Below are positions 52,704 through 64,000 of a DNA stretch of 64,000 bases, in pieces; position 1 is the stretch's first letter; each line of letters starts with the position of its first letter. Where the stretch lies: IMG/VR virus record IMGVR_UViG_3300042991_000483, positions 7,299 through 71,298 of that record; one strand, written 5' to 3'. Under the pieces are notes generated by a model that made no database searches, had not been told where the DNA came from, and saw only the letters and a list, made by a program, of their open reading frames with translations. The position numbers and the translations under genes were made by a program. Source of the stretch: a virus.

Positions 52704-52786
52704 TGTGAGGACCCCGTTGGGTGGGGCTGAGGCTGTTAACCTCACGCTGAAAAGCAGATAGGGTTCGATTCCCTACCTCACAGCCA
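52704..52786 (+). tRNA. tRNA with GTT anticodon (Asn) and long variable arm
   Basis: tgtgagg/cctcaca-G-CCA; tgagg-ctGTTaa-cctca; gct-gaaa-agc arm; TTCGATT loop. Confidence 0.75.
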
Positions 52787-52789
52787 AAC

Positions 52790-52864
52790 GGAGCGTTAGT
52801 TCAATGGTAGAACGCGGGGTCTGTTAAACCCACGACGAAGGTCCGATTCCTTCACGCTTCGCCA
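52790..52864 (+). tRNA. tRNA-Asn(GTT)
   Basis: ggagcgt/acgcttc-G-CCA; gggt-ctGTTaa-accc. Confidence 0.85.
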
Positions 52865-52978
52865 ATTTTTTAATAAGGTCACCGGGGCAACCAAGTAGAT
52901 GACGCCACATCGTGTGGCTAAGGATAAGGTCAGTGTTCGATATGTGGGAGGTGACGTTACAGAACAAACAGTACTAAT

Positions 52979-53074
52979 GCCATCATTTCCCCTCAACCGG
53001 CTGTAACCCGGTTGCCCGTTACCAATAAGAGGGGTCGGCTGGGCGTCCGGTTCGAATCCGCGATGGTGGCACCA
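52979..53074 (+). tRNA. tRNA-Tyr(GTA), D-arm-less rewired type
   Basis: gccatca/tggtggc-A-CCA; aaccgg-ctGTAac-ccggtt; cccctc pairs with gagggg in the variable arm. Confidence 0.8.
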
Positions 53075-53076
53075 TT

Positions 53077-53152
53077 CTCTGTCTGGTGTAAGTGGTCTGC
53101 ACTGTAGCTCGAAACACTACGGGACTCCGTTCGATTCGGAGGGCAGAGGCCA
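53077..53152 (+). tRNA. tRNA with CGA anticodon (Ser-like), 9-nt loop and short variable region
   Basis: ctctgtc/ggcagag-G-CCA; gtag-ctCGAaaca-ctac. Confidence 0.65.
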
Positions 53153-53161
53153 AAGTTCTGT

Positions 53162-53235
53162 AGCCCTTTAGTTCAACATTAGAACAATGCTCTGATAAAG
53201 CATAGACTTCCGTGAGACTCGGAGAAGGGCTACCA
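53162..53235 (+). tRNA. tRNA-Ile(GAT)
   Basis: agccctt/aagggct-A-CCA; atgct-ctGATaa-agcat. Confidence 0.88.
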
Positions 53236-53244
53236 AACAATCAG

Positions 53245-53319
53245 GCTTCCTTCGTCTAGCTAGGAGGACTCCCGGCCGATTACCGGGGAACGCTGGGGCA
53301 GAGCCAGCAGGAAGTTCCA
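53245..53319 (+). tRNA. Atypical tRNA with GAT anticodon (Ile?)
   Basis: gcttcct/aggaagt-T-CCA; cccgg-ccGATta-ccggg; T-loop GGCAGAG. Confidence 0.65.
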
Positions 53320-53327
53320 AAATATGT

Positions 53328-53401
53328 GGGGTCGTCGTTCAACGGGAGGACACTACAATGGCATTGTAGGGATCGGGGTTCGATTCCCCGTGACTCCACC
53401 A
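53328..53401 (+). tRNA. tRNA-Ala(GGC)
   Basis: G3:U70; ctaca-atGGCat-tgtag; ACCA. Confidence 0.92.
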
Positions 53402-53408
53402 ACATAGT

Positions 53409-53484
53409 GGGGGCGCATGTACCAAGGGGGCGATGATGCCTCGCAAGCATCGTGCGGAGAGTTCGATTCTCTTCGTCTCCACCA
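53409..53484 (+). tRNA. tRNA-Ala(CGC)
   Basis: G3:U70; gatgc-ctCGCaa-gcatc; ACCA. Confidence 0.9.
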
Positions 53485-53494
53485 AAAGTTTTAT

Positions 53495-53568
53495 AGGTCC
53501 GTCGGTTAACAGAAGGCTCCTGGTCTCCAAAACCAGCAATCTCCGTGCAAATCGGAGCGGACCTGCCA
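53495..53568 (+). tRNA. tRNA-Trp(CCA)
   Basis: aggtccg/cggacct-G-CCA; ctggt-ctCCAaa-accag. Confidence 0.9.
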
Positions 53569-53574
53569 ATTTAT

Positions 53575-53650
53575 CCCAGGGTCGTCTAACACTTAGGACA
53601 CGCGCCTCCAAAGCGCGAAGGTGTGGGTGAAAATCCTACCTCTGGGGCCA
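53575..53650 (+). tRNA. tRNA-Trp(CCA), second copy
   Basis: cccaggg/ctctggg-G-CCA; cgcgc-ctCCAaa-gcgcg. Confidence 0.88.
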
Positions 53651-53865
53651 ACTCTTAGGAGGTTGCCTATGTCATCGCCAAACGCAAGTCCGAGTACTAC
53701 CACATACTCCTGACTAGGTTCAGTTCCGATATAGACAGGGACACGGCACTGGCGGAATGCAGGAGTAGGTGCTACACAAAACCCAATGTAGTAGAGGGTC
53801 TTGGCAACAAACTTCTGACACTTTCTGGTAAAGTCTTTCGCTCACCTGAGTCTTGCTTCGAGGCG

Positions 53866-54126
53866 ATGGACGGTATGGGAGTTGGCCTGGACCTGATCCG
53901 GTGCGAGGACTACATCACTCTCGGTCGCTACCTCTACGGGAAGCGGATGCTCAACGTCACCGTGACTCAGTGGATCGAGGACATGAACATCTACATCTTC
54001 TGGCCAGAACTCTTCCGCGAGTACCCGCGTTGGTTCTTAGAAACCTACCTCTCCCGGATTTGGACGGCGGAGATTGGGATGTGGTATGGCGCTTTCACTT
54101 CTGATCTCGCTATAAATAAGGAGTAG
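53866..54126 (+). CDS. Hypothetical protein (frame open back to 53659)
   Basis: Track ORF; the upstream extension has no in-frame ATG. Confidence 0.45.
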   Translation: MDGMGVGLDLIRCEDYITLGRYLYGKRMLNVTVTQWIEDMNIYIFWPELFREYPRWFLETYLSRIWTAEIGMWYGAFTSDLAINKE

Positions 54127-54253
54127 AGACGGAGCAGCATCTGCTGCGGGAAAGTTGGAGGAAGAGTTGGTAGCCCTTCCTTGGCATCTGCCAAAACGAA
54201 GAACGCCCGATGTCCTGCGCCAACAGCCGAAGGGACACGCCGTCTCTACCTCC
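54120..54253 (+). ncRNA. Unclassified rod-shaped RNA with possible pseudoknot
   Basis: gtagagacgg/ccgtctctac closing stem, nested ttggagg/cct..ccaa and ttggtag/ctgccaa; CGCTATAAATA just upstream. Confidence 0.55.
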
Positions 54254-54256
54254 ATA

Positions 54257-54388
54257 GGAACCTGGGCTGGTGTACGAGACGATCAGAAATGGCATTCCCT
54301 GCTAGTAGCCCCTCCTGTTACGAGGGAGCCCGGTATAGGGGGTAGGGAGGAGTGGGTGGCGAATCGAGACTCCCACGCCCGCGTTCCA
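54257..54388 (+). ncRNA. Enlarged tRNA-like RNA (GTT loop, CCA end)
   Basis: gaac..gggc/gccc..gttc ends; ccctc-ctGTTac-gaggg; tccctgc/gtaggga; gtggg/cccac arm. Confidence 0.5.
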
Positions 54389-54610
54389 AATTCTTTCGCT
54401 ATCTCTGAGGGAGTGTGGTAGAATGTATCTGACCGGATCCATGCCGCAGGGCAGTGGGTTAATGAGAGAGGGTTCTCCGGGCGCTTCACCTAACGTAAAC
54501 GAACCCTCGTCACGGAGATTGTGAAAGGGACGCAATCCCGTTCCCACAAGGTACTTAATCGGCAACGCCGGTAGCCTTCCCTCACCGGCACTTCTTCTAC
54601 GGAGGCAAGT

Positions 54611-55027
54611 ATGAAGTTCACCAAGCTCAATTACGTCAAGAGGGGAGAGGTTACGAAGGCTATCCGTCAATCTTGTCCCACCGCCTCTTTTCCAAAAGAC
54701 CAAAACAAAGCCACCGTGACGGTTTGGTTGCAGGATGAGGACCTTCCAGCATTAGATGCTGTCGCTAACTCCTTCGGTCTCCCCAAGCCTTTTCATCCCC
54801 ACTGTAGTGAGACATATAGTAGGGTTAGGGATGTCTGGCTCTTCAAAGATGATGCTAATCTTGCTGCATACGAAGAAGAGTGGGCACAAGTTCGGGCCAA
54901 GGAGAACGCTAGGCTGAGGAAAGAGCGGGACGAGGAGAGGGCATGGTACAAGTCTCAGGGTCGGGAAATACCATCATACCTGATGTGGGCGATTAGCCCA
55001 GCGGAGGCATATTGTTTAGGCGCATAG
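54611..55027 (+). CDS. Hypothetical protein
   Basis: 138 aa with SD GGAGG. Confidence 0.7.
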   Translation: MKFTKLNYVKRGEVTKAIRQSCPTASFPKDQNKATVTVWLQDEDLPALDAVANSFGLPKPFHPHCSETYSRVRDVWLFKDDANLAAYEEEWAQVRAKENARLRKERDEERAWYKSQGREIPSYLMWAISPAEAYCLGA

Positions 55028-55455
55028 AATTGATCACGGTCACCGACTACCGAGAGATCGCCAAGGAGATGAAAGCCAACGGCTGGACCCCCTCTGACTT
55101 CATCGCCGAACTGGCTCAATCCGGCGAGAGGGAGTGGTTAAAATCAGGACTCTGCTTCAACGGATGCGACATGGCCGTCTTTGACTCCTGGGTAGACAGA
55201 CTCGAAGAAGGCATCACGAATAAGCATAGGGGCGTCCCGAATAAGAACGGGAGGTTCTACTTCACAGAAGAGGGCTGGAACAGGGTTGGACGGTATGCTG
55301 TTGCAGCTTGTATTAAGACCGGGACACAGTACCGTGTGCTGAAGGTCAAAGAGAAGGAGATGGATGTTATATTTCGCGGTGCCTACGAGGTCATGCTGAG
55401 ACCGAAGAAGAAGCGTAGGGATCGCAAAGAAGATCAGCGACTGAGTCAAGATTAG
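55012..55455 (+). CDS. Hypothetical protein
   Basis: 147 aa; RFYFTEEGW; SD GGAGG. Confidence 0.7.
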   Translation: MFRRIELITVTDYREIAKEMKANGWTPSDFIAELAQSGEREWLKSGLCFNGCDMAVFDSWVDRLEEGITNKHRGVPNKNGRFYFTEEGWNRVGRYAVAACIKTGTQYRVLKVKEKEMDVIFRGAYEVMLRPKKKRRDRKEDQRLSQD

Positions 55456-55526
55456 GGCCTATGGCGTAATTAGGAACGCATCGCCCCTGCAAGGCGAAGT
55501 CCCCGGGGCGGAGCCGGGTAGGTCCA
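55455..55526 (+). tRNA. tRNA-Ala(TGC), CCA not encoded
   Basis: gggccta/taggtcc-A with G3:U70; tcgcc-ccTGCaa-ggcga; T-loop GGCGGAG. Confidence 0.8.
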
Positions 55527-55530
55527 CAGG

Positions 55531-55590
55531 GGTTCGTTTCCTGTTGGGTTCACCAAAAGAATATACATAGGAACCCAACAGGAGATGAAC
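55531..55590 (+). promoter_or_regulatory. RBS-sequestering hairpin with promoter motif in its loop
   Basis: gttcgtttcctgttgggttc/gaacccaacaggagatgaac; loop contains AGAATATA; 3' arm contains SD AGGAG. Confidence 0.75.
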
Positions 55591-55591
55591 T

Positions 55592-56584
55592 ATGTCAGAC
55601 GTTTATAAATGCGAACAATGCGGAAAAACAGTCGAATCCTCTAAACGTTTTTGCGGAAGACCATGTTCTAACCGTTGGATAGCCACTCACAGAAAGACCC
55701 ATCCGAGAGAAGCTAAATTAGAATGCGCGTGTAAACACTGTGGAAGCATGTTCAAGAAAAAGCATAATCTCGGGTTTCGCCTCTGTACGAGGTGCAGAAA
55801 TAAACAAGACTACATCAGGGATAGAAATAAAACAGCGCAGCCAGGAAGAGAAAGGCTTTGTAAGTACTGTGAAAAACCCAACTTAGGAGAATACGGGGCT
55901 GGAATATTCTGCTCTCAACTCTGTTCGAAACGATACGCCAGTGCATACACGCAGACGCCGATTCTAGTCGTTTGTATGGACTGCGAAAAAGAGTTCTCTA
56001 CGTTTGAAAGAAACAAGTCCCAAACAAAGCGATGTCCGGCCTGTAGAAAAAGGGCTAGACGTAAACGACAAGGGCTACATGGGATATCAAAAAAGGAAAA
56101 GTGTTCGAAATGTCAGAAGAACATAGGTCCTACAAAGCACGGAATGTGCAAAGTATGCCTTTATAAGGACCCTGAATTTAGACTGAAAGTGAAAGCACTA
56201 TCTGCGGGCTGGCACTTTCGACCAAGGAAAATGAGGTCGTTTCCAGAACTTTTCTTTGAGCGGGTCATAAAGAATAACAGAAGACGGTTTAAGGGAGAGG
56301 GGTATTTACCGGATTACCCAGTGAAAAAGAAATCTCTGGGTCTCATCAATAATGGCTCCTATTTCCTTGATTTCTATTTCCCAAATTGGAAGTTAGACCT
56401 GGAAATAGATGGGAGCCAGCATTGGCAATATGAGGAGCGGATACAGAGCGATATTACGAGAGACATTGCTCTGAAAGCTAATGGTATAAAGGTATATAGG
56501 ATCCCGTGGCCGGGGGTAGAGAAGAAAGAGGTTTTGTCTATGGAGATCGAGAAATTTTTATCTTACGTGGATGAGCTTTCATGA
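55592..56584 (+). CDS. Zn-finger-repeat DUF559/Vsr-like homing endonuclease
   Basis: Multiple CxxC; SFPE, YFLDF, LEIDGSQH, RDIAL..GIKVYRI; AT-rich. Confidence 0.88.
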   Translation: MSDVYKCEQCGKTVESSKRFCGRPCSNRWIATHRKTHPREAKLECACKHCGSMFKKKHNLGFRLCTRCRNKQDYIRDRNKTAQPGRERLCKYCEKPNLGEYGAGIFCSQLCSKRYASAYTQTPILVVCMDCEKEFSTFERNKSQTKRCPACRKRARRKRQGLHGISKKEKCSKCQKNIGPTKHGMCKVCLYKDPEFRLKVKALSAGWHFRPRKMRSFPELFFERVIKNNRRRFKGEGYLPDYPVKKKSLGLINNGSYFLDFYFPNWKLDLEIDGSQHWQYEERIQSDITRDIALKANGIKVYRIPWPGVEKKEVLSMEIEKFLSYVDELS

Positions 56585-56677
56585 TTCTCTCCAGGTCCAC
56601 CATTGACAGCGCGAGGGCTTCGGCTCTCGCTTTCTGCTGCCAGACGAGAATATAGTGATATAACGAAGGAGAACGCC

Positions 56678-56935
56678 ATGCCCATGTACGAAGTCTTTCT
56701 CAGCGGAACCCTCTATCTCAACGCCCGCGTGGAAGTGGAAGCCAATAGCCCAGAAGAAGCTGAATCTGTTGCGATGCACAGAGCTGCATCAGATGACGAG
56801 TCTATCGAATGGATAAACTTGGACAGTAGCCTGGAAATGCCTCCTGGGGTATTTCCTTCGGATGCTGTCTACGTGGACGATGTCTCAGAGATGGACGAGG
56901 ACGATGGTATCGGCTCTGATTTCATCGAGACCTAA
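56678..56935 (+). CDS. Small acidic hypothetical protein
   Basis: SD AGGAG; VEVEANSPEEA motif. Confidence 0.7.
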   Translation: MPMYEVFLSGTLYLNARVEVEANSPEEAESVAMHRAASDDESIEWINLDSSLEMPPGVFPSDAVYVDDVSEMDEDDGIGSDFIET

Positions 56936-56936
56936 G

Positions 56937-57242
56937 ATGTCGCAATACGGATACAAACCCGAACCCAGTGAAGCCGGGGTGGTTTCCCGTATCGTCATAG
57001 AACCGAACTATTCCAGTAACGAAGAGTTTCCTGGAAAGCTATCGGTGATGATGTTGGACGCAGAGGACAGGCTAGTGGACGTCTGGAGTGCCAACGACAT
57101 CAATGAAGCCGCTGCGCTATTGATCCGATACGGTGGCGAAGCCGGATACGAAATCAACAAAGTCGAGTCTCCCCAGATCCCGAACGAAGGCGACGCCCCC
57201 GAGCCACCTTGGCCTGTAGGCGGAGACGTCGGCGGCGTCTAA
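56937..57242 (+). CDS. Hypothetical protein
   Basis: ATG immediately after the upstream stop. Confidence 0.6.
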   Translation: MSQYGYKPEPSEAGVVSRIVIEPNYSSNEEFPGKLSVMMLDAEDRLVDVWSANDINEAAALLIRYGGEAGYEINKVESPQIPNEGDAPEPPWPVGGDVGGV

Positions 57243-57264
57243 TCCCCCACTTCCTAACTCAATA

Positions 57265-57292
57265 AAAGAGCCTGCTATTTGCAGGCTTTTTT
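57265..57292 (+). terminator. Intrinsic terminator
   Basis: agcctgc-tattt-gcaggct followed by T-run. Confidence 0.75.
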
Positions 57293-57403
57293 GTTGCCCT
57301 GTTTAGATACTCACCGCCGGATGTAGAGTTAATGAACAGAAACTCCTTATTCTATAAAGAGAATATATGAGTAGTGACTCGCTAATATAAGAGGAGGTTC
57401 GCC

Positions 57404-57589
57404 ATGACCGCAGTCCTTGTGATACTCACCATCCTCGTTCTCGTTCTCGTTGCCGCAGACGCTACCAGACTCTCTCTTGTTCGTAGGAGAATGATAAAGG
57501 TAGGAGCCGTATTTGAACCTGGGCTTGGTTTCTGCATGGGCGACGGGCTTCGGAAAGATGACGCTGATCCGGAGAATATACAGGCTTAG
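57404..57589 (+). CDS. Small membrane-anchored protein
   Basis: Hydrophobic N-terminus; SD GGAGG. Confidence 0.6.
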   Translation: MTAVLVILTILVLVLVAADATRLSLVRRRMIKVGAVFEPGLGFCMGDGLRKDDADPENIQA

Positions 57590-57654
57590 CCGGGGAAGTT
57601 TTCAAAATTCTCCGCTATTATATTCAAGGTGTGATATACTCAACCCCTTGGAGG

Positions 57655-57759
57655 ATGAAGACGATGTTTAAGAGATCTAGGCAACCCAAACCAGTACAGA
57701 CAGGGACTACGGGACATATGCGCCCGTGCGTCGGCGTCAAGGGAGGTCAGACCTCGTAA
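57655..57759 (+). CDS. Leader peptide 2, MKTMFKRSRQPKPVQTGTTGHMRPCVGVKGGQTS
   Basis: TGATATACT -10 at 57632-57640; SD GGAGG is best spaced to the second Met (57664); overlaps the antiterminator arm. Confidence 0.8.
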   Translation: MKTMFKRSRQPKPVQTGTTGHMRPCVGVKGGQTS

Positions 57760-57822
57760 AATCATCGGCATTATTAGGTGAAACGAGGCGACCTCCAAGA
57801 AAATTGGGGGTCGTTTTAGTTT
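57742..57822 (+). promoter_or_regulatory. Attenuator 2 (antiterminator/terminator)
   Basis: ggaggtc..cctcgt pairs with acgagg.gacctcc and is exclusive with terminator gcgacctccaa-gaaa-ttgggggtcgt plus T-run. Confidence 0.8.
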
Positions 57823-57918
57823 TGGGGTCAGGGTAAGGTTTCGGATGTAGCTTATGCTGTCACCGGAGAAACCAGCACAGTGGCGAGGGCGGGGCCGACT
57901 GGGCGAAGTGGAGTTGAG

Positions 57919-58128
57919 ATGAGAGAAGAATGCTTGCATGGTAGGACGTACAGGGTGGTTGTAGGAGCGGAGGCTAGAAGGACTACGGTCACGGAATTTG
58001 GAGACGAGATTCAGTATTGCGTGGAACGGATCATTTTCAGGTGTTCAGATTGCAACAGAGAAGTATCAGAACTAGGTAGACGCAGGGCTTACTTCCCCAC
58101 GACTACTGAATTAGAAACGACGAAGTAA
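57919..58128 (+). CDS. Small Cys/His hypothetical protein, first gene after attenuator 2
   Basis: CLH..CSDC; SD GGAG. Confidence 0.55.
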   Translation: MREECLHGRTYRVVVGAEARRTTVTEFGDEIQYCVERIIFRCSDCNREVSELGRRRAYFPTTTELETTK

Positions 58129-58131
58129 GTC

Positions 58132-58143
58132 GCTCTTTGAAAA
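58132..58143 (+). promoter_or_regulatory. boxA-like antitermination element
   Basis: GCTCTTTGAAAA before tRNA array 2. Confidence 0.6.
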
Positions 58144-58246
58144 TCAGTCGGAAGAACGGACCGCAGAACCCCTCACGTTCTGCGTGGCATGATTCTGCGG
58201 TCTCGAACTTTAGATTTGGAACGCGCTCGTGCGCGTTCCCACCTCC

Positions 58247-58318
58247 GCGCCTTTAATGTAACGGTAGCATGCGGTCAGGCTTGATCCCCCGCAGAGCGGT
58301 TCGATTCCGCAAGGCGCT
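58247..58318 (+). ncRNA. tRNA-like RNA (Gly-type body) with aberrant 14-nt anticodon loop
   Basis: gcgcctt/aaggcgc-T, D-arm and gcgg-ttcgatt-ccgc. Confidence 0.65.
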
Positions 58319-58331
58319 TCTTATTACTTAT

Positions 58332-58429
58332 GGGGTCTGTTAGTGTAAAAGGATAGCACACTCCGTCCTACGCGGGTACCGGCGAGACGGGTCAAAGTAG
58401 ACGCGGTTCGATTCCGCACGGGCCCCCCA
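58332..58429 (+). ncRNA. tRNA-like RNA (His-type G-1:C73 end) with extended anticodon arm
   Basis: ggggtctgt/acgggcccc-CCA, D-arm, ccgtc/gacgg extension and gcgg-ttcgatt-ccgc. Confidence 0.7.
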
Positions 58430-58443
58430 ATTCTTATCTATGA

Positions 58444-58521
58444 CTGAGAGTGGACTAATGGCTAAGTCTCCTGCTTTGGAAGCAGGACATCGTGAGAGTT
58501 CGAGTCTCTCCTCTCAGACCA
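58444..58521 (+). tRNA. tRNA-Pro(TGG)
   Basis: ctgagag/ctctcag-A-CCA; cctgc-ttTGGaa-gcagg. Confidence 0.93.
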
Positions 58522-58529
58522 AAACATGA

Positions 58530-58604
58530 TGGCGTTTGGTGGACCAGCGGACACATCGGGCCTTGAACCCGAAGAACAGGGGCCGGCACCCTGAACGCCT
58601 GCCA
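58530..58604 (+). tRNA. tRNA-Gln(TTG)
   Basis: tcggg-ccTTGaa-cccga; G-CCA; T-loop GCCGGCA. Confidence 0.8.
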
Positions 58605-58615
58605 AAAACGATTAC

Positions 58616-58689
58616 TGGCGCTTCGTTCAATAGTAGGATTCTGCTCTCTGAAAGCAGAGACGATGGGGCGGTACCATCAGTGCCAGCCA
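58616..58689 (+). tRNA. tRNA-Gln(CTG)
   Basis: tggcgct/agtgcca-G-CCA; ctgct-ctCTGaa-agcag. Confidence 0.88.
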
Positions 58690-58711
58690 ATATCTCCGAG
58701 TATCTTAACGT

Positions 58712-58799
58712 CAGGGTGTAGTCCCGTAAATAGCAGCGGTCCGGCCTCGGACGCCGGTGGGGCAACCCCTTGGTGGTGCAAGTCCACTCGCCCTGACCA
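58712..58799 (+). tRNA. tRNA-Pro(CGG) with long variable arm
   Basis: cagggtg/cgccctg-A-CCA; ccggc-ctCGGac-gccgg; ggg-gcaa-ccc arm. Confidence 0.8.
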
Positions 58800-58816
58800 A
58801 TTCTTCTTTGTACAAT

Positions 58817-58860
58817 CCCCTCCATCGAGGAAACGTTGGTTCAACTCCAGCACCGGGCAC
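58817..58860 (+). pseudogene. 3'-half tRNA remnant
   Basis: T-arm gttgg-ttcaact-ccagc and accgggc-A with no matching 5' strand. Confidence 0.5.
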
Positions 58861-58917
58861 TTTCACTTTCCATCTGGAAACTATAATGTCCAAATGGACA
58901 CTCAAATGACCAAGTAA

Positions 58918-58993
58918 GCGGGAATGGTGTAAAGGAAGCATCGAACGTTGCCAACGTTCAGGTCCGGGTTCGCCTTGCCCGGTTTCCGCTCCA
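58918..58993 (+). tRNA. tRNA-Gly(GCC)
   Basis: gcgggaa/tttccgc-T-CCA; gaacg-ttGCCaa-cgttc; 9-nt T-loop. Confidence 0.88.
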
Positions 58994-59002
58994 AAAACAA
59001 AT

Positions 59003-59093
59003 AGTCGGCATTCCCTATGCTGGTCTGCAAAACCAGTGGGCCCAACCAAGTAGGGCGGATGCCTGTGAGGTTCGACTCCTCTGCTGACTTCCA
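59003..59093 (+). tRNA. tRNA-Cys(GCA), D-arm-less rewired type
   Basis: agtcggca/tgctgact-T-CCA (U73); ctggt-ctGCAaa-accag; cccta pairs with taggg in the variable arm. Confidence 0.8.
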
Positions 59094-59150
59094 ATTTCTT
59101 TCTATATCTCCAGAGACTGTGGTAGAATATACCTTTGTCATGGAGATAGC

Positions 59151-61052
59151 ATGAGAGAGAGTGCAGTCGGTACTTGCCAGATCTGCGAAAGACTCGTCAA
59201 GTCTAACCGCGGCACTATCGCCCACCACGGATACACCAGACCTGGGGCAGGGTGGCAAACAGAATCGTGCATGGGATCCATGTACAAACCCTACGAAGTC
59301 AGTAGGGACAGGATCCCGGACGCCATAGCCTCCGTGGAAGCCTACATCAAAACAGCAAAGGCTAGGTTGAAGCAGTTGAAGTCCGGGGGCGTGGTGCTCA
59401 GCAAGAGAGTTCAGAAAGAGTTTAATCGTCAGACTTGGAAATACGAATACGAAGATGTTGAAGTCAGACCTGGAGACGAAGACTACGACCAACTCCTTCA
59501 CTCTGCTGTCGCTAAGACTGAATCCAATATCTCTGGCTCTCAAACCACGCTCAACAGATTCAAGCAGAGGTACGAGGAATGGGAGCCAAAGGACTTGCGT
59601 AGGGTCGCGGAGCCCACTACAGCTGCTGAGAGGATACAGAAGCGGAAGGAAGAGGGACCACAAGAAGATTTCAAATTTGAAGTAGGGGATTGGGTCTACC
59701 GAGTCCTCGGTGGCAGGGTGCAGAAGGGCGTCAAGCTTGAGTTTTGGGGCGAAAGCAAAGCCGTCCCGAGCCGTATCAAATACCCCATGGGACAGATCCT
59801 TCGGAGAAACTTTAGACCTCGTGCGGCTGAGTATAAGCGTCACGAGTACGAGATCATCTTTTTCGAAGACTACCTGGGTTGGGTCAACGACGCCGACAAG
59901 GACTGGAAACGAGACAGCGAGAGGGTGACGACTTCGCAGGAGATGCTAGTGGCTTCTCCAGAACAAGTCCCTGAACTCGGTACAGGAGTCGAGTTCGCCA
60001 GTAAGCGAAATGCAGAGTTAGCACTACTGCCGAAGGAGGCAGTGAGAAAAAGTTCAGATGACGCCCCCTTCAAATTCGAAGTCGGAGATACCGTGTATAG
60101 ACTCGGGAACGACGGGATGCCTATAACCGACATAGGCACGGACAAATACCACGACGTCGGTGAACCACCTCTCCATATAACCTATCCCGTAGGTAAGATA
60201 AAGAAACGCATATACAAAGCGAAACTTGCCAAAGAAAATCTTCGAATCCGTTACATCGTGGAATGGGTCACGGACTGGTTCAAACCCGATACCCACGAAG
60301 GTCCTACCATGACTTATCGCTATGAGAGAGAAACCAGAAGCACGGAAGAGATGGAAACCAGCCTCGTCCCTGCAGCAAGTGCTGTGCCGCCAATACCAAA
60401 AGAAACAGCAACGAGAAAGAATGCTCTCTATTCGGAGACTACAGTGATAACCGAAGACAAAGCAGAACAGATTAAGATCGCCGGTAGAACGATGACCACT
60501 CGCGCTGGTGGCGGCGCCTCTAAACCAATTCGCTGGCTCATCAACAACTCCTGCATCCTCGGTCATGTCCTCTACCACGGCAGGGGCAAAGATATCGCCG
60601 GTGAGAGTATGCTAGCCTCTGACGTGGGTGTCTCTAGTGTGTCCGCTTACGATCCTAATATCAGCGGTATAGATGATGCCAGCACCCTCAATGGGGATTA
60701 TGATACTGTTGTCACCGTCTTCGTTCTCAATGTCCTCCCCCCAGATATCCGCGCCGAAGTCTTAGACGACCTCCGTACCGCAACAGGAGATGGCGTGTGC
60801 TTCGCCGCTGTCAGAGGCAAGGGAGAAAGAGGGTATCAAGACGCGACCAGAGAAGGCGCGAACTGGATCCCCGAGGAAGACGGCTACCGATACCAGGGAG
60901 CAAGGAACACTTTCCAGAAATGGTATGACCCCAGTGAACTCGTGTCAGAACTCAAGTCCGTATTCTCTCATGTCGAGATCGTGAACACTGATAGGGAAGC
61001 CCCTATCGCGATGGCCTGGAATCAGGGCAACCACTCCTGTCCGAATAAATAA
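59151..61052 (+). CDS. Multidomain protein with C-terminal SAM-methyltransferase-like domain
   Basis: GTCQIC..HHGY N-domain, duplicated FKFEVGDxVYR module, and VLYHGRGKD..YDP..YDTVVTVFVLNVL. Confidence 0.7.
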   Translation: MRESAVGTCQICERLVKSNRGTIAHHGYTRPGAGWQTESCMGSMYKPYEVSRDRIPDAIASVEAYIKTAKARLKQLKSGGVVLSKRVQKEFNRQTWKYEYEDVEVRPGDEDYDQLLHSAVAKTESNISGSQTTLNRFKQRYEEWEPKDLRRVAEPTTAAERIQKRKEEGPQEDFKFEVGDWVYRVLGGRVQKGVKLEFWGESKAVPSRIKYPMGQILRRNFRPRAAEYKRHEYEIIFFEDYLGWVNDADKDWKRDSERVTTSQEMLVASPEQVPELGTGVEFASKRNAELALLPKEAVRKSSDDAPFKFEVGDTVYRLGNDGMPITDIGTDKYHDVGEPPLHITYPVGKIKKRIYKAKLAKENLRIRYIVEWVTDWFKPDTHEGPTMTYRYERETRSTEEMETSLVPAASAVPPIPKETATRKNALYSETTVITEDKAEQIKIAGRTMTTRAGGGASKPIRWLINNSCILGHVLYHGRGKDIAGESMLASDVGVSSVSAYDPNISGIDDASTLNGDYDTVVTVFVLNVLPPDIRAEVLDDLRTATGDGVCFAAVRGKGERGYQDATREGANWIPEEDGYRYQGARNTFQKWYDPSELVSELKSVFSHVEIVNTDREAPIAMAWNQGNHSCPNK

Positions 61053-61062
61053 GGAGAAGACG

Positions 61063-61332
61063 ATGCGCAGATACCTTATCTTCGCCGGAAGCGAATTTTA
61101 TCCTAGTGGTGGGTGGGCAGACCTCGTAGATATGGCTGACGAACTAGGCAAAGTCTACTACATCATAGATGGTTGGCGAGAGTTTGACGACTGGGATGCA
61201 GAGGCTTTGCGAGATGATAGCCCAAGCTCCTACAAATACGATTGGGTACAGGTTGTGGACACACAGGCATCGACCCCCTTCAAGTTCGAGGGGACGGTAG
61301 AAGAAGTTCTTTACGGACTCAGACGCCCGTAA
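61063..61332 (+). CDS. Hypothetical phage protein
   Basis: RYLIFAG.FYPSGGWAD..DWVQVVD; SD AGGAG. Confidence 0.75.
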   Translation: MRRYLIFAGSEFYPSGGWADLVDMADELGKVYYIIDGWREFDDWDAEALRDDSPSSYKYDWVQVVDTQASTPFKFEGTVEEVLYGLRRP

Positions 61333-61396
61333 GATCCTCCCTTATCTTCCGGAGTTATGGTATACTGTCTCCGTGGAGATAGTAGCTTCCGCGATG

Positions 61397-61407
61397 GTTC
61401 TTTGAAA
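61397..61407 (+). promoter_or_regulatory. boxA-like element after TGGTATACT promoter
   Basis: GTTCTTTGAAA; promoter at 61343-61366. Confidence 0.6.
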
Positions 61408-61410
61408 CTG

Positions 61411-61694
61411 CTTTCGGTGGTAGGCTTAGAAGTAGCCAGTACGGCTCACACCCGTACCTGCCTTAATGAGCAGAAGCATAGCCTATAGTGAGTGGTGCGT
61501 GGGTTGGGGACTTATACGCGCACCGGCGGGGGAAAGTTGCCCCGAAATATCCTACCTGCCCGACCTGAATCCCAAGCGTGAGAAGGGAATCCTCCCTATG
61601 AAGTACCTTCTCATAACGTGATGGTTAAGGCTGAGGCTGACAACTTGCTTTAGGTGGAGGTCTAGCTTCTCTTGGTGTAACAACACGCCGAAAG
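61411..61694 (+). ncRNA. Structured RNA resembling the 23S rRNA L11-binding domain (H43/H44)
   Basis: GGCTTAGAAGTAGCCA and GGTGTAACAACAC framed by a ctttcggtg/cgccgaaag stem. Confidence 0.7.
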
Positions 61695-61702
61695 AACATA
61701 TG

Positions 61703-61808
61703 ACGGGTTTGGTGTAACGTTAGCACTCTCTGGGGAGGACGGGTTCTCGCCTTCGGGCTACGACCAAATTCTTCGGGGAAGAGCGGTTAGACTCCGCAAC
61801 TCGTACCA
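61703..61808 (+). ncRNA. tRNA-like RNA with long branched anticodon arm
   Basis: acgggtt/aactcgt-A-CCA, D-arm and gcgg-ttagact-ccgc; no 7-nt anticodon loop. Confidence 0.7.
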
Positions 61809-61836
61809 AAATAATCTAATATGATGGAGGAGTCCG

Positions 61837-62313
61837 ATGAAGAAAGTGGACAAGCACATCGTCACCGCCGCTCACAAAGCCTACCACAATCGCAGTAAGA
61901 CCTGGAGACGTTCTCGTCTCAAGTACCGTTCGGAATACTTTGACTACTCCTGTAGGCATCACGGCTCTTGTCCTTACTGCCACCTCAGGCGCCTGCATAA
62001 CACCATCCGCAGAGAACTCAATGCCAGAGAAGAGATGGCAGAGTTCATCAAAGACCCAAATGGCTGGGACGCTCGGACTGAGGCAGAGTTGTGGGGCATG
62101 GACGAAGACGATCCTACAACGCCTCAGGAATATCTCGACCCCGCTTTTCTTGCCGCCTGGGAGACGTACCAAGATCGAATGGGCGGGGAGATGACGGATG
62201 AACAAGACCAGTGGGAGATTGATAACCACTTCGACGGAGACCGAGAGGCTTGGGAAAAAGCCGAAGTCGAAAGCTATTTAGAAGCTACAGAATCTATAGG
62301 ACGAGATGACTGA
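61837..62313 (+). CDS. Hypothetical protein (basic N-terminus with C-H-C-C motif, acidic C-terminus)
   Basis: FDYSCRHHGSCPYC; SD GGAGGAG. Confidence 0.7.
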   Translation: MKKVDKHIVTAAHKAYHNRSKTWRRSRLKYRSEYFDYSCRHHGSCPYCHLRRLHNTIRRELNAREEMAEFIKDPNGWDARTEAELWGMDEDDPTTPQEYLDPAFLAAWETYQDRMGGEMTDEQDQWEIDNHFDGDREAWEKAEVESYLEATESIGRDD

Positions 62314-62351
62314 TGGGTGCATGCACCTAGCATCAGCCTCGTCCCACTCAT

Positions 62352-62426
62352 GGCGTAGTTAGTCCAATGGTAGGACGCAGGACTGTGAATCCTGTTATAA
62401 GAGTTCGATTCTCTTACTTCGCCCCA
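62352..62426 (+). tRNA. tRNA-His(GTG)
   Basis: G-1 and C73; cagga-ctGTGaa-tcctg; CCA. Confidence 0.92.
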
Positions 62427-62458
62427 ATCCAAATAAAAGCGAGGATCTCGCTGAAGAT

Positions 62459-62533
62459 GTGTCGTTGGCAGAGCGACCATGCGCTGGGATGTGACCCCAG
62501 ATCAGGCCGGTTTAACTCCGGCACGACACCCCA
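62459..62533 (+). tRNA. tRNA-His(GTG), second copy without encoded G-1
   Basis: gtgtcgt/acgacac-C-CCA; ctggg-atGTGac-cccag. Confidence 0.82.
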
Positions 62534-62620
62534 ATATGAGACAGCTTGCCCCAGGCTAAGGCAGAAGATGAAGCGGAGCGAGGATGCCGAGTCTCCGATT
62601 AAACTGCCACTCTCTTTACT

Positions 62621-62694
62621 GCGGATATGGTGTAAAATCAGCATCTTGCATTCCCAATGCAAGGGACTCGGAGAGTTACCGAGTATCCGCTCCA
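62621..62694 (+). tRNA. tRNA-Gly(CCC)
   Basis: gcggata/tatccgc-T-CCA; ttgca-ttCCCaa-tgcaa. Confidence 0.88.
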
Positions 62695-62696
62695 AT

Positions 62697-62776
62697 GCTC
62701 CTGTATCGGACAGGTTTCCTAAACCTGACCACCGTAACGGATGAAAATGCGGGTTCAAGTCCCGCCGGGAGCCCCA
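62697..62776 (+). tRNA. tRNA-Arg(CCT), D-arm-less type
   Basis: gctcctg/cgggagc-C-CCA; caggt-ttCCTaa-acctg; 7-nt D region and 21-nt variable region. Confidence 0.75.
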
Positions 62777-63286
62777 CTATTCTATTCCTGCGTGTCTTTC
62801 TCTGTGGCAGTTAGCGCAGAGAAGAACGCATTTGTCCAACTCTGCCCTCATGCAGTCATTGAAGGACACACTCTTTTTCTTTGAGATAATGAAGTCTTTC
62901 TTGCTTGGGTCAGTGTGATGAAAATCCAAGGCACCAGTGAATTTGTCATACCCACACTTTTCACATTTTCCACCTTTGTAGTCTACAAACTGTTGCTTCT
63001 GCCTTTGTCCTCGGTCCCTGCACTCATCACTTGTACACTGCTTACAATACGACGAGGTATCTTTTCGATCCTCTCTCCTTACCATATAGAAGGCAGATAG
63101 TGGTCTTGTCTCTTTACATCTAGGACATCGTTTCACTCCAAGATTCTTTGGATATTGACTAGTGTTATGCTTTCCGAAGGGACTACAGGCTAGGCAGAAA
63201 CGCCGTTTACTAAAGTTTCGTTTCTTACCCTCTATCTCTACGAATATCGCGAACGCATCACCACACTTCTCACACGTTTTAGGCAT
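62777..63286 (-). CDS. HNH homing endonuclease
   Basis: KCEKCGY..ALDFHHTDP..ELDKCVLLCANCHRERH. Confidence 0.92.
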   Translation of the reverse strand: MPKTCEKCGDAFAIFVEIEGKKRNFSKRRFCLACSPFGKHNTSQYPKNLGVKRCPRCKETRPLSAFYMVRREDRKDTSSYCKQCTSDECRDRGQRQKQQFVDYKGGKCEKCGYDKFTGALDFHHTDPSKKDFIISKKKSVSFNDCMRAELDKCVLLCANCHRERHAGIE

Positions 63287-63342
63287 TTAGACCTCCTTGT
63301 CTAATTGTATATTCTCGTGGAGGTGTGTAGTTGAACTATTAT

Positions 63343-63424
63343 GCACCCGTAGCCGAGCGAGGCCCCGAACCTCGTATCCGTAATGTAGCTGCGAATGGAG
63401 GTTAAAGTCCTCTCGGGTGCTCCA
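63343..63424 (+). tRNA. tRNA-Arg(CCG), D-arm-less type
   Basis: gcacccg/cgggtgc-T-CCA; cgagg-ccCCGaa-cctcg. Confidence 0.65.
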
Positions 63425-63426
63425 AC

Positions 63427-63501
63427 GCTGTGGTCTTCTAAGACGCAGGATGCTTCTCTCACTAAGAAGCGATGGGGGTGCGAATCCTCCCCGCAGCACC
63501 A
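63427..63501 (+). tRNA. tRNA-Val(CAC)
   Basis: gctgtgg/ccgcagc-A-CCA; cttct-ctCACta-agaag. Confidence 0.85.
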
Positions 63502-63546
63502 TCACGCTATCTTTATCCGGGCTTAACTCAGCGGAATAGCTTTCAC

Positions 63547-63621
63547 CTGCCCGTAATTCAGTGGTAGAATCCAATTCTTACAAAATTGGGGTCGGTGGTT
63601 CGAGTCCACCCGGGCAGACCA
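63547..63621 (+). tRNA. tRNA-Val(TAC)
   Basis: ctgcccg/cgggcag-A-CCA; caatt-ctTACaa-aattg. Confidence 0.92.
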
Positions 63622-63683
63622 TAAAATACAACGTTCAATTCGTTCTCTCTGCACCAAAAAGAATATACGGATAGAGGTGTCAA

Positions 63684-63875: not shown

Positions 63876-64000
63876 GGCATCGCCCAGAGCTTCTCCTTCG
63901 TCGCCCAGCCCCAGGGCAACGGCATCGCCGAACGCTTCATCAAGACGCTCAAGCAGCAGAGCATCTACGGCCACGTCTTCCGAAACGCCCAGGAGGTCTA
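63875..64000 (+). mobile_element. Internal fragment of an IS3/IS481-type DDE transposase
   Basis: GIAQSFSFVAQPQGNGIAERFIKTLKQQSIYGHVFRNAQEV; abrupt rise in GC. Confidence 0.75.

What the first reader, a model, noticed from the sequence alone, without database searches (positions are those of the whole stretch)
52979..63424. Family of topologically rewired tRNAs: no D-hairpin, D-strand pairs into an enlarged variable region
Tyr (52979) has cccctc/gagggg, Cys (59003) cccta/taggg, Arg-CCT (62697) tatc/gatg and Arg-CCG (63343) tagc/gctg, the last two differing by a compensatory pair. In Tyr, Cys and Arg-CCT a GG lies next to the pairing strand and could replace G18G19. Correct discriminators (Tyr A73, Cys U73), intact anticodon arms and CCA argue for function. 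Cys reads as 8/4 and Tyr as 8-9/3 acceptor/T stems. Standard scanners would probably miss these or call them pseudogenes.
Basis: partly seen in the sequence, partly recalled or inferred. Interest (0 to 1): 0.82.

Follow-up and report, generated by a model that had tools for sequence, protein, structure and literature searches.

The report
Phage tRNA genes lacking D hairpins
Four transfer-RNA genes in a large phage's tRNA cluster lack the usual D hairpin yet keep every other helix intact, and two of them, plus a relative in an unrelated metagenome contig, appear to rebuild that helix by pairing with an enlarged variable region, a fold not described for bacterial or phage tRNAs.

Summary
Tyr-GTA (52979-53074), Cys-GCA (59003-59093), Arg-CCT (62697-62776) and Arg-CCG (63343-63424) sit in a roughly 28-gene tRNA array of a T4-like phage fragment. 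Each has only 7-10 nt between acceptor and anticodon stems and 21-35 nt after the anticodon arm. ARAGORN of 4.

They are two architectures, not one family.

Type 1 (Tyr, Cys) has an 8-bp acceptor stem and a 4-bp T stem. A 6-nt pyrimidine strand runs straight into a 6-bp anticodon stem. The variable region is closed by its own 4-bp helix, and its loop carries the complementary 6-nt purine strand. One independent homolog, a Tyr-GTA in metagenome contig L015 (59 of 91 positions identical), keeps all five helices. Across the three sequences, 77 of 79 pair cells are standard pairs. Two of the 6 rewired-helix pairs and 2 of the 4 closing-helix pairs change on both sides.

Type 2 (both Arg) is 7/5. 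Its proposed 4-bp pairing is no better than shuffled sequence and depends on gap placement.

No expression or charging data exist. I rate this a new structural variant of tRNA, shown convincingly only for Tyr and Cys, on three sequences.

The parts
52979..53074 (+). tRNA-Tyr(GTA), type 1, no D hairpin. Acceptor 52979-52986 / 53063-53070, discriminator A 53071, CCA 53072-53074.
   Evidence: Segment check. Model R1 scores it 124.7 bits, which is a self-match. Not called by ARAGORN or Rfam.
52989..52994 (+). Tyr strand A (CCCCTC). It is continuous with the anticodon stem (52995-53000 / 53008-53013).
   Evidence: It pairs 6/6 with 53029-53034, the only 6/6 register. These are helix columns 11-16:51-56.
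53014..53044 (+). Tyr enlarged variable region. Closing helix GCCC 53014-53017 / GGGC 53041-53044; loop with ACCAA 53018-53028; strand A' GAGGGG 53029-53034; TCGGCT 53035-53040 holding the invariant GG.
59003..59093 (+). tRNA-Cys(GCA), type 1, 8/4. Acceptor 59003-59010 / 59082-59089, discriminator T 59090, CCA 59091-59093.
   Evidence: R1 31.1 bits, E 9e-6. tRNA-Sec model 29.7 bits, below its cut-off of 47.
59013..59018 (+). Cys strand A (CCCTAT).
   Evidence: It pairs 6/6 with GTAGGG 59050-59055, the only 6/6 register.
59038..59064 (+). Cys enlarged variable region. Closing helix GGGC 59038-59041 / GCCT 59061-59064; CCAACCAA 59042-59049; A' 59050-59055; CGGAT 59056-59060.
   Evidence: The 11-mer at 59043-59053 recurs at 52888-52898.
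62697..62776 (+). tRNA-Arg(CCT), type 2, 7/5. 7-nt connector TATCGGA 62704-62710; 21-nt variable region 62728-62748.
   Evidence: RF00005 36.5 bits, with 13 D-arm consensus positions replaced by 2 and an 18-nt insertion in the variable region.
63343..63424 (+). tRNA-Arg(CCG), type 2, 7/5. 8-nt connector 63350-63357; 22-nt variable region 63375-63396; C33 in loop 63363-63369; T-loop TTAAAGT 63402-63408.
   Evidence: RF00005 29.6 bits. R2 37.2 bits.
52704..63621 (+). The tRNA array that holds them: about 28 tRNA-like genes, nearly all with encoded CCA, with ORFs in between. Neighbours lie 2-9 nt from the four genes.

Best explanation
These are four genuine, structurally maintained tRNA genes of a large T4-like phage that work without a D hairpin. 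They come in two designs.

Type 1 (Tyr-GTA and Cys-GCA, plus the Tyr-GTA of metagenome contig L015):
- An 8-bp acceptor stem and a 4-bp T stem, followed by a 2-nt linker.
- A 6-nt pyrimidine strand that runs without a break into a 6-bp anticodon stem.
- A 29-33 nt variable region closed by its own 4-bp helix. Its loop carries a conserved ACCAA, a 6-nt purine strand complementary to the 5' strand, and an invariant GG.
- The 'D stem' therefore forms between the 5' connector and the variable-arm loop, which is a pseudoknot.
- This gives a 12-bp anticodon branch and a 12-bp acceptor branch. From recall, these are the dimensions of tRNA-Sec and allo-tRNAs.
- The GG probably takes the G18-G19 role towards the canonical T-loop. 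That is inference.

Type 2 (Arg-CCT, Arg-CCG):
- An ordinary 7/5 acceptor branch, a 7-8 nt connector, and a 21-22 nt variable region with a shared CCGTAA.
- How its core folds is not resolved.

Likely function (inferred, not shown): the genes are transcribed with the rest of the array. They are then cut out like their neighbours, charged by host synthetases through anticodon and discriminator, and used as elongator tRNAs. The unusual core may make them poor substrates for host enzymes that cleave or sense canonical tRNAs.
For: Anatomy:
- Acceptor, anticodon and T helices have no mismatch in Cys and in both Arg. CCA is encoded in all 4. Anticodon and discriminator fit Tyr (GTA, A73) and Cys (GCA, U73).
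- The four lie 2-9 nt from ordinary tRNA genes, the same spacing as the rest of the array.
- No second Tyr, Cys, Arg-CCT or Arg-CCG gene was found in the window.

Independent homolog:
- A pattern fixing only about 21 loop and linker bases gave 9 stretches in metagenome contigs. One of them, L015:296-386, is tRNA-like.
- It scores 65.9 bits (E 1.4e-15) on model R1 and is 59/91 identical to the window's Tyr.
- It lies among 6 ordinary tRNAs.
- Its acceptor, strand A, strand A', three of the four closing-helix pairs and the T stem were not fixed by the pattern, yet they pair.

Covariation on the 3-sequence alignment A7:
- 27 pairs; 77 of 79 cells are standard pairs (97.5%). The shuffle mean is 72%, with 0 of 500 shuffles as high. 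Sliding partners by 1-3 columns gives 41-58%.
- Helix A:A' (6 pairs): 3 invariant, 1 changed on one side, 2 changed on both sides (CG/UG/UA and UA/CG/AU).
- Closing helix, which was not part of the model (4 pairs): 2 changed on both sides.
- In each of the 3 sequences the proposed register is the only 6/6 match.
- Columns 17:35 also pair (AU, GU, GU), extending the anticodon stem.

The two Arg paralogs:
- They differ by 6 both-side and 2 one-side changes in 17 canonical pairs, and all pairs are kept. So they were maintained after losing the D hairpin.

Demand:
- AGG is the commonest Arg codon in 21 phage ORFs (144 of 612 Arg codons). CGG is 61 of 612.

Rarity elsewhere:
- 0 such genes were found among the 35 and 33 ARAGORN-called tRNAs of arrays L024 and L025.
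Against: - Only three type-1 sequences exist, and alignment A7 was fitted to a model that contains helix A:A'.
- Strand A is all pyrimidine and A' is nearly all purine, so with G.U allowed the variable pairs still score 8/9 when slid by +2 or +3.
- Single-sequence complementarity is marginal: p = 0.027, 0.12 and 0.13.
- RNAalifold's own nested consensus chooses the closing helix plus ACC:GGU and leaves the 5' strand unpaired.
- The proposed nested fold is 4-12 kcal/mol above the MFE.
- With 0-1 nt before and 2 nt after the closing helix, having both helices at once may be sterically strained. This is my reasoning and was not modelled.
- T stems are weak in both Tyr genes: C.C in the window, U.U in L015.
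- For the Arg pair the pairing is not above chance and depends on the alignment.
- Arg-CCG has C33 and A56.
- From recall, bacterial ArgRS uses A20 of the D-loop and E. coli CysRS reads the tertiary core. Both could be lost here.
- No relative was found in three viral contigs pattern scans, one pattern scan of 185,579 species genomes, or GenBank phages.
- There is no RNA evidence.
Confidence: 0.5

Rival explanations
1. D-armless tRNAs of the mitochondrial kind with an ordinary, if large, variable arm. The 5' strand is only a flexible unpaired connector, and the variable region folds on itself (4-bp closing helix plus inner pairs). The apparent A:A' complementarity is a by-product of a pyrimidine-rich connector facing a G-rich loop.
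For: RNAalifold's consensus on A7 predicts exactly this: the closing helix 36-39:63-66 plus 43-45:55-57, with columns 9-16 unpaired. The closing helix covaries (2 of 4 pairs on both sides) and was not in the model. Slid registers of the variable A:A' pairs still give 8/9. This reading also suits the two Arg genes, where no connector pairing stands out.
Against: Pairs 15:52 (UA, CG, AU) and 14:53 (CG, UG, UA) change in step. This includes an A in the pyrimidine strand matched by a U in the purine strand in Cys. The proposed register is the only 6/6 one in each of the 3 sequences. Strand A abuts the anticodon stem with no unpaired base.
Confidence: 0.22
2. tRNA-shaped RNAs that are not used for decoding. 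They could be decoys or sponges for host tRNA-cleaving defences, or clients of the phage's Ro60-like protein. They would be kept for shape rather than for charging.
For: The phage encodes a TROVE + Ro60-vWA protein at 33356-34393, and a protein with an RNA-ligase domain at 22194-24896. The L015 homolog lies just upstream of a Ro60-like vWA gene, whose family also follows the 33-tRNA array of plasmid L025. Mukai et al. report irregular polycistronic tRNAs that are charged but not used, or not charged (PMC5389517, passages read). The array duplicates several anticodons as one regular and one odd copy: Asn, His, Trp, Gln.
Against: The four carry anticodons found nowhere else in the window, with matching discriminators for Tyr and Cys. 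AGG is the phage's commonest Arg codon. Anticodon stems and loops are conserved, which a decoy for acceptor- or T-arm-binding proteins would not need.
Confidence: 0.15
3. Decaying pseudogenes. The D arm was deleted and the remaining similarity to tRNA is a remnant.
For: Phage and plasmid tRNA arrays often hold defective copies (recalled). Arg-CCG has C33 and A56 and scores only 29.6 bits. Both Tyr genes have a mismatch in the T stem. No relatives were found in the viral or species-genome collections.
Against: L015 and the window's Tyr differ at 32 of 91 positions yet keep every helix. The two Arg genes differ by 6 both-side changes in 17 pairs with none broken. Decay would break stems at random.
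Confidence: 0.1

Closest known systems
allo-tRNAs and other (8/4) and (9/3) tRNAs of bacteria and phages (Mukai et al. 2017, PMC5389517; abstract and passages read, figures and supplements not seen)
   Same: A 12-bp acceptor branch split 8/4 or 9/3. A longer anticodon stem and an enlarged variable region. Occurrence in phage tRNA clusters and in polycistrons of irregular tRNAs. A weak match to the tRNA-Sec model.
   Different: Those tRNAs keep a D stem-loop (a long stem with a tetraloop), and most carry serine identity. Here there is no D hairpin, the partner strand lies in the variable region, and the identity marks are Tyr and Cys. The two Arg genes are 7/5.
Mitochondrial D-armless tRNAs (mammalian mt-tRNA-Ser(AGY), nematode mt-tRNA-Ser; review PMC7609411, passages read)
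   Same: No D hairpin, a short connector between the acceptor and anticodon stems, and an extended anticodon stem.
   Different: Those are organellar, shortened molecules with reduced T-loop and D-loop contacts and dedicated partner proteins. Here the molecules are longer than normal (80-96 nt with CCA). Type 1 keeps a canonical T-loop and gains a large structured variable region.
tRNA-Sec (Rfam RF01852)
   Same: An 8-bp acceptor stem, a 6-bp anticodon stem, a 6-bp helix in the D position, and a long variable arm. It is the best Rfam match for Cys (29.7 bits) and for the L015 Tyr (23.3 bits).
   Different: Scores are far below the cut-off of 47. The anticodons are GTA and GCA, not UCA. The D helix is not a hairpin.
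tRNA array units of cyanobacterial and mycobacterial plasmids and of huge phages (e.g. PMC12803027, one passage read; L025 and L024 here)
   Same: Dozens of tandem tRNA genes on a mobile element. Array copies differ from chromosomal ones mainly in the 'anticodon domain' (D arm, anticodon arm, variable arm).
   Different: In the two arrays examined here (33 and 35 ARAGORN-called tRNAs), no gene lacks the D hairpin.
YrlA / bacterial Y RNAs with a tRNA-like module
   Same: tRNA mimicry linked to a Ro60 protein. A Ro60-like gene is present in this phage and next to the L015 array.
   Different: As I recall it, in YrlA the RNA ends form the Ro-binding stem and the acceptor-like stem is closed by a loop. 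The four genes here have free acceptor ends with CCA and real anticodon loops. There is no YrlA match on them.

Membership tests
canonical tRNA (cloverleaf; Rfam RF00005) | Acceptor stem closed by the 5' and 3' ends, discriminator, 3' CCA (encoded or added) | tested here: met
   Acceptor stems of 7-8 bp without mismatch in 4 of 4, with CCA encoded in 4 of 4.
canonical tRNA (cloverleaf; Rfam RF00005) | T arm with a 7-nt loop of the T-T-C-R-A type | tested here: met
   TTCGAAT, TTCGACT and TTCAAGT are present. Arg-CCG has TTAAAGT, with A at position 56. The Tyr T stem has a C.C mismatch.
canonical tRNA (cloverleaf; Rfam RF00005) | Anticodon arm: 5-bp stem, 7-nt loop, U33, purine 37 | tested here: met
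   Met in 3 of 4. Arg-CCG has C33, loop CCCCGAA.
canonical tRNA (cloverleaf; Rfam RF00005) | D hairpin between positions 9 and 26 | tested here: not met
   Only 7-10 nt lie between the stems in 4 of 4. The RF00005 alignment deletes the D arm in Arg-CCT.
canonical tRNA (cloverleaf; Rfam RF00005) | Score at or above the gathering cut-off (29 bits) | tested here: inconclusive
   Arg-CCT 36.5, Arg-CCG 29.6 (permissive filters only), Tyr and Cys no RF00005 match.
allo-tRNA / (8/4),(9/3) tRNAs | 12-bp acceptor branch split 8/4 or 9/3 | tested here: met
   Cys is 8/4. L015 Tyr is 8/4 with one U.U. The window's Tyr is 8 + bulge + 4 or 9/3. Both Arg are 7/5, so not met for them.
allo-tRNA / (8/4),(9/3) tRNAs | D stem-loop with a long stem and a tetraloop | tested here: not met
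   No hairpin is possible in the 9-nt connector. The feature is as described in PMC5389517.
allo-tRNA / (8/4),(9/3) tRNAs | Serine identity (long V-arm, G73 or U73) whatever the anticodon | not testable with these tools
   Anticodon and discriminator fit Tyr (A73) and Cys (U73). Charging was not tested.
mitochondrial D-armless tRNA | No D hairpin, short connector | tested here: met
mitochondrial D-armless tRNA | Organellar, shortened molecule with a short variable region | tested here: not met
   The record is a phage contig (portal, prohead protease and terminase hits). The genes are 80-96 nt with CCA, with variable regions of 21-35 nt.
tRNA-Sec (RF01852) | Score at or above 47 bits and a UCA anticodon | tested here: not met
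   29.7 bits (Cys) and 23.3 bits (L015 Tyr). The anticodons are GCA and GTA.
YrlA Y RNA | Match to RF02553, with the ends forming a Ro-binding stem | tested here: not met
   No YrlA match overlaps the four genes at E <= 10.

The most novel reading that the evidence does not exclude
A natural, translationally active class of phage and mobile-array tRNAs has a rewired core. The D stem forms between the 5' connector and the loop of an enlarged variable arm, as a pseudoknot. The class is kept across unrelated mobile tRNA arrays because it escapes host enzymes that recognise the canonical D-arm/elbow, such as tRNA-cleaving defences, while still fitting synthetases, EF-Tu and the ribosome.
Probability: 0.3. 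Interest if true: 0.88.

Novelty: new variant of a known kind. Interest (0 to 1): 0.72.

Why it matters
Outside animal mitochondria, tRNAs are taken to be uniformly cloverleaf. [quoted passage not shown]

A phage-borne tRNA that replaces the D hairpin with a long-range pairing would show that the bacterial translation apparatus tolerates a different core topology. It would also offer ready-made orthogonal scaffolds for genetic-code engineering. And it would give a concrete test of the idea that phage tRNAs diverge in order to escape tRNA-targeting immunity.

There is also a practical warning. ARAGORN and the default Rfam pipeline miss such genes, so phage tRNA complements are undercounted. Here Tyr, Cys and two Arg isoacceptors would have been scored as absent.

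Tried and rejected
Relatives of the phage:
- The 633-aa ORF beside the Cys gene and the portal, each used as a single query in viral contigs, gave no relative.
- A portal alignment (A1) found 4 IMG/VR fragments, L004-L007, with no tRNA match.
- Portal relatives in GenBank phages are all below 60% identity.
- The 633-aa ORF has one homolog, P0121 (79% identity), on a 13.8-kb Logan contig. The portal relative P0003 lies on a 405,869-bp contig. I could not read either contig, because the tool that fetches encoding contigs is closed.

Relatives of the tRNAs:
- blastn of the array, of Tyr and of Cys against GenBank phages gave only an ordinary tRNA-Ala and one T-arm fragment.
- blastn of the L015 Tyr against plasmids gave nothing.
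- The first Cys pattern in viral contigs gave 3 stretches, none tRNA-like.
- The Tyr/Cys pattern, the Arg pattern and an anticodon-free type-1 pattern in viral contigs each gave 0 stretches.
- The Tyr/Cys pattern in metagenome contigs gave 9 stretches. Eight are not tRNA-like and one is the L015 Tyr.
- The same pattern in genome contigs gave 7 stretches, none tRNA-like.

Covariance models:
- Model R1, searched over 195,245 bases of loci, gave 7 matches at E <= 10. Three are real.
- R1 over the whole 595-kb phage LR756511, a 1.2-Mb plasmid and 3 viral records gave one 21-nt match at E 0.74.
- Model R2 (Arg) found only its paralog. The other 25 matches are ordinary tRNAs threaded wrongly.

Ro60-like vWA family as a route to more arrays:
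- Three viral loci, L027-L029, were found. They hold few tRNAs, and the Tyr among them is canonical.

Sequencing runs:
- One holder was listed, probably the source sample. No RNA holder was listed.
- Laying its contigs at 80% likeness gave one piece covering 62343-63903 with no difference. That is not independent of the window. No variant fell inside the four genes, and large parts of the stretch had no cover.

Ideas rejected:
- An intron or a permuted gene. The ends pair and carry CCA, and removing either insert leaves no cloverleaf.
- An alternative reading of Arg-CCG with a GCC/GGC D arm and a GTA anticodon. It needs a 4-bp anticodon stem with a mismatch and 14 spare bases.
- Origin of type 1 from a class II tRNA-Tyr D arm.

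Literature:
- Searches listed no paper that describes a bacterial or phage tRNA without a D arm. This is a limited word search.
- The supplementary figures of PMC5389517 (irregular polycistronic tRNAs, 'E-loop' tRNAs) could not be seen and may bear on novelty.

Full report
**Context**

The window is bases 7299-71298 of a 71,298-bp IMG/VR virus record that CheckV rates about 33% complete. It encodes the following:
- a T4-type portal, ribonucleotide reductase, a protein with an RNA-ligase domain, an SbcC-like ATPase and a split family-A DNA polymerase;
- a prohead protease and part of a T4-type terminase;
- RecA, a 5'-3' exonuclease and a TROVE + Ro60-vWA protein.

From 52704 to 63621 on the + strand lies an array of about 28 tRNA-like genes, interspersed with small ORFs. 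Nearly all have an encoded CCA.

**The observation**

- The ordinary tRNAs of the array have 17-22 nt between the acceptor and anticodon stems. These four have 7-10 nt.
- Their variable regions are 21-35 nt instead of mostly 4-7 nt.
- Acceptor, anticodon and T helices are otherwise intact, and CCA is encoded.
- Tyr has A73 and Cys has U73.
- ARAGORN calls none of the four.
- Rfam at gathering thresholds reports only Arg-CCT, at 36.5 bits. Its alignment deletes the D arm and inserts 18 nt in the variable region.
- Arg-CCG reaches 29.6 bits only with permissive filters. Cys matches only tRNA-Sec at 29.7 bits, against a cut-off of 47. Tyr matches nothing.
- Each gene lies 2-9 nt from an ordinary tRNA gene.

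A structural scanner I wrote looks for a closed acceptor stem, an adjacent T arm, an anticodon arm within 4-12 nt of the acceptor stem, and a variable region of at least 12 nt.
- In the window it returned 11 rows. Six are readings of the four genes. Four are mis-readings of the Ile gene at 53162. One is a terminator-like site at 57211.
- It found no true case among the 35 ARAGORN-called tRNAs of L024.
- In a relaxed run over 89,265 further bases, including the 33-tRNA array of L025, it found only the L015 Tyr plus two spurious rows.

**Two architectures**

Tyr and Cys share a design, confirmed by one pattern that matches both. The order of elements is:
- an 8-bp acceptor stem;
- a 2-nt linker;
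- a 6-nt pyrimidine strand A;
- one base that pairs across, so the anticodon stem is 6 bp;
- the anticodon loop;
- T;
- a 4-nt strand Vs5';
- 8-11 nt containing ACCAA;
- a 6-nt purine strand A';
- 5-6 nt containing GG;
- Vs3';
- GT;
- a 4-bp T stem with a canonical T-loop.

Strand A pairs with A', and Vs5' pairs with Vs3'. The two helices cross, so together they form a pseudoknot.

The two Arg genes are different. They have a 7/5 acceptor branch, a 7-8 nt connector, a 21-22 nt variable region with a shared CCGTAA, and 5 nt before the T stem.

**Search for relatives**

Close relatives of this phage are rare.
- Single-protein scans found none.
- A portal alignment found four IMG/VR fragments without tRNAs.
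- GenBank phages hold nothing similar to the four genes.
- Three patterns in viral contigs found nothing.
- The Tyr/Cys pattern fixes about 21 bases, all in loops and linkers apart from two closing-helix bases. It gave 7 stretches in 185,579 species genomes, none tRNA-like.
- The same pattern gave 9 stretches in metagenome contigs, of which one is a true homolog.

That homolog, L015:296-386, is a Tyr-GTA gene on a 2,019-bp contig.
- It sits between six high-scoring ordinary tRNAs: Arg, Thr, Lys, Lys, Gln, Arg.
- It lies upstream of a gene of a very conserved Ro60-like vWA family.
- It scores 65.9 bits (E 1.4e-15) on model R1, which was built from the window's Tyr alone. The window's Cys scores 31.1 bits.
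- It is 59/91 identical to the window's Tyr.
- It has no encoded CCA.

**Covariation**

On the model-guided alignment of the three sequences (A7), I counted a structure that includes the pseudoknot helix.
- There are 27 pairs, and 77 of 79 cells are standard pairs (97.5%).
- The shuffle mean is 72%, and none of 500 shuffles is as high. Sliding partners by 1-3 columns gives 41-58%.
- Seventeen pairs have a change on both sides.
- Helix A:A' has three invariant C-G pairs, one pair changed on one side (CG, CG, UG), and two changed on both sides (CG/UG/UA and UA/CG/AU).
- The closing helix was not in the model. It has two pairs changed on both sides (CG to GC) and one changed on one side.
- In each sequence the proposed register is the only one with 6 of 6 pairs.
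- Columns 17:35 also pair (AU, GU, GU).

There are caveats.
- There are only three sequences, and the alignment was fitted to A:A'.
- One strand is pyrimidine and the other purine, so slid registers of the three variable pairs still give 8/9.
- Single-sequence duplex energies are only marginally better than shuffles: p = 0.027, 0.12 and 0.13.
- RNAalifold, which cannot draw pseudoknots, prefers the closing helix and leaves strand A unpaired.
- The nested fold with A:A' is 4-12 kcal/mol above the MFE. That is common for tRNAs but is not support.

**The Arg pair**

The proposed TATC/GATG and TAGC/GCTG pairings include U8.G.
- They are not better than shuffles: p = 0.26 and 0.65. For Arg-CCT, the best duplex is a different one.
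- A model built without that helix aligns the 2-nt length difference so that the 'compensatory' columns do not correspond.
- What is solid is that the two paralogs differ by 6 both-side and 2 one-side changes in their 17 canonical pairs, with none broken. So both have been kept as folded tRNAs since they lost the D hairpin.
- Arg-CCG has C33 and A56 and is the weakest candidate for function.

**What it most likely is**

Shown:
- Four tRNA-shaped genes without a D hairpin sit in register with ordinary tRNA genes.
- The type-1 design is conserved in an unrelated contig.
- Compensatory change occurs in all helices.

Inferred:
- The genes are co-transcribed and processed with the array, charged through anticodon and discriminator, and used in decoding.
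- The phage's codon use is consistent with demand. AGG is 144 of 612 Arg codons, the commonest. There are 374 Tyr and 124 Cys codons among 11,168 codons of 21 ORFs.
- In type 1, A:A' stacked on the 6-bp anticodon stem gives a 12-bp branch, and 8+4 gives a 12-bp acceptor branch. From recall, these are the dimensions of tRNA-Sec and allo-tRNAs. The description of allo-tRNAs comes from PMC5389517, passages read.
- The invariant GG after A' is a candidate partner for the canonical T-loop.
- The idea that the odd core serves to evade tRNA-targeting defences is a hypothesis. It is suggested by the RNA-ligase-domain protein and by published work on phage tRNAs and tRNA-cleaving defences. For that work I saw only the listing and abstract starts (PMC10264068 and the PARIS preprint).

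**Comparison with what is known**

- The nearest described class is the (8/4)/(9/3) allo-tRNA group, but those tRNAs keep a D stem-loop.
- Mitochondrial D-armless tRNAs share the missing hairpin, but they are shortened organellar molecules (PMC7609411, passages read).
- Five word searches listed no paper describing a bacterial or phage tRNA without a D arm.
- The supplements of PMC5389517, which show irregular polycistronic tRNAs, were not available.

**Verdict**

It is a new structural variant of tRNA. The case is reasonably supported for Tyr and Cys on three sequences and unresolved for the two Arg genes. Function is untested.

Noticed in passing
window 33356-34393 (+), 32746-33366 (+), 31540-32210 (+): The phage encodes a TROVE + Ro60-vWA protein, with an NUMOD3/HNH homing-endonuclease ORF just upstream of it. 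The 670 nt before these ORFs hold two T-arm-like hairpins, ARAGORN 'tRNAs' with anticodons ATC and AAT, four GGTGAT-containing repeats and a weak YrlA match (18.4 bits, E 0.72). This may be a phage Ro60 / Y-RNA-like module.
   Followed up: partly
L015 1604-2017; L025 12001-12405 with tRNAs at 7450-11466; L024 (LR756511.1 around 286.8 kb): A very conserved Ro60-like vWA protein family lies directly downstream of large tRNA arrays. It has 1226 hits at E <= 1e-10, about 64-82% identical among 11 aligned members carrying cyanobacterial, Armatimonadetes and Acidobacteria names. The arrays are on a metagenome contig, a cyanobacterial plasmid and a 595-kb phage.
   Followed up: partly
window 58333-58429 (+): A 97-nt tRNA that ARAGORN calls 'Pyl' with anticodon CTA. 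It can be read either as a class-II-like possible amber suppressor with C33, or as an ACG tRNA with about 11 extra bases in the anticodon loop. Rfam does not list it.
   Followed up: no
window 52704-52786 (+) and 58712-58799 (+): tRNAs with a 14-nt variable arm but anticodons of class I amino acids: Asn-GTT, next to a normal Asn-GTT, and CGG (Pro). The first scores 35.9 bits on the tRNA-Sec model.
   Followed up: no
window 53245-53319, 55455-55526, 58530-58606, 58616-58689, 62621-62694 (+): Several otherwise regular tRNAs have T-loops without the T-T-C motif: GGCAGAG, GGCGGAG, GCCGGCA, GGCGGTA and AGAGTTA. Several anticodons occur as one regular and one odd copy (Asn, His, Trp, Gln).
   Followed up: no
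window 52866-52975 (+): A tRNA-sized element just upstream of the Tyr gene has a 6-bp terminal stem and a TTCGATA loop, but no anticodon arm and no CCA. It shares the 11-mer CAACCAAGTAG with the Cys variable region. These are the only two copies in the window, against 0.02 expected. Its fold is no more stable than shuffles (z = -0.5).
   Followed up: partly
window 61380-61810 (+); also 54130-54600 and 57800-58240: Long GC-rich non-coding stretches lie inside the array. One ends in a 106-nt tRNA-like gene (61703-61808) with a 50-nt middle part. No Rfam family matches at E <= 10.
   Followed up: no
window 22194-24896 (-): A 900-aa protein with an RNA-ligase domain at residues 544-734. This may be tRNA repair against anticodon nucleases.
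   Followed up: no
L025 10534-11394 and L026 10400-11900: In the cyanobacterial plasmid arrays some tRNA genes look interrupted by inserts. A motif, AAGCTTACATACT, recurs next to the breaks.
   Followed up: no
window 63874-64000: Word depth in the source run jumps from about 14 to about 313, with many loose ends. The contig ends in a repeat, so the tRNA array may continue beyond the window.
   Followed up: no
window 35207-36775 and 45539-46858 (+): The family-A DNA polymerase is encoded in two separate ORFs about 9 kb apart: an exonuclease plus N-terminal polymerase part, and a C-terminal polymerase part.
   Followed up: no
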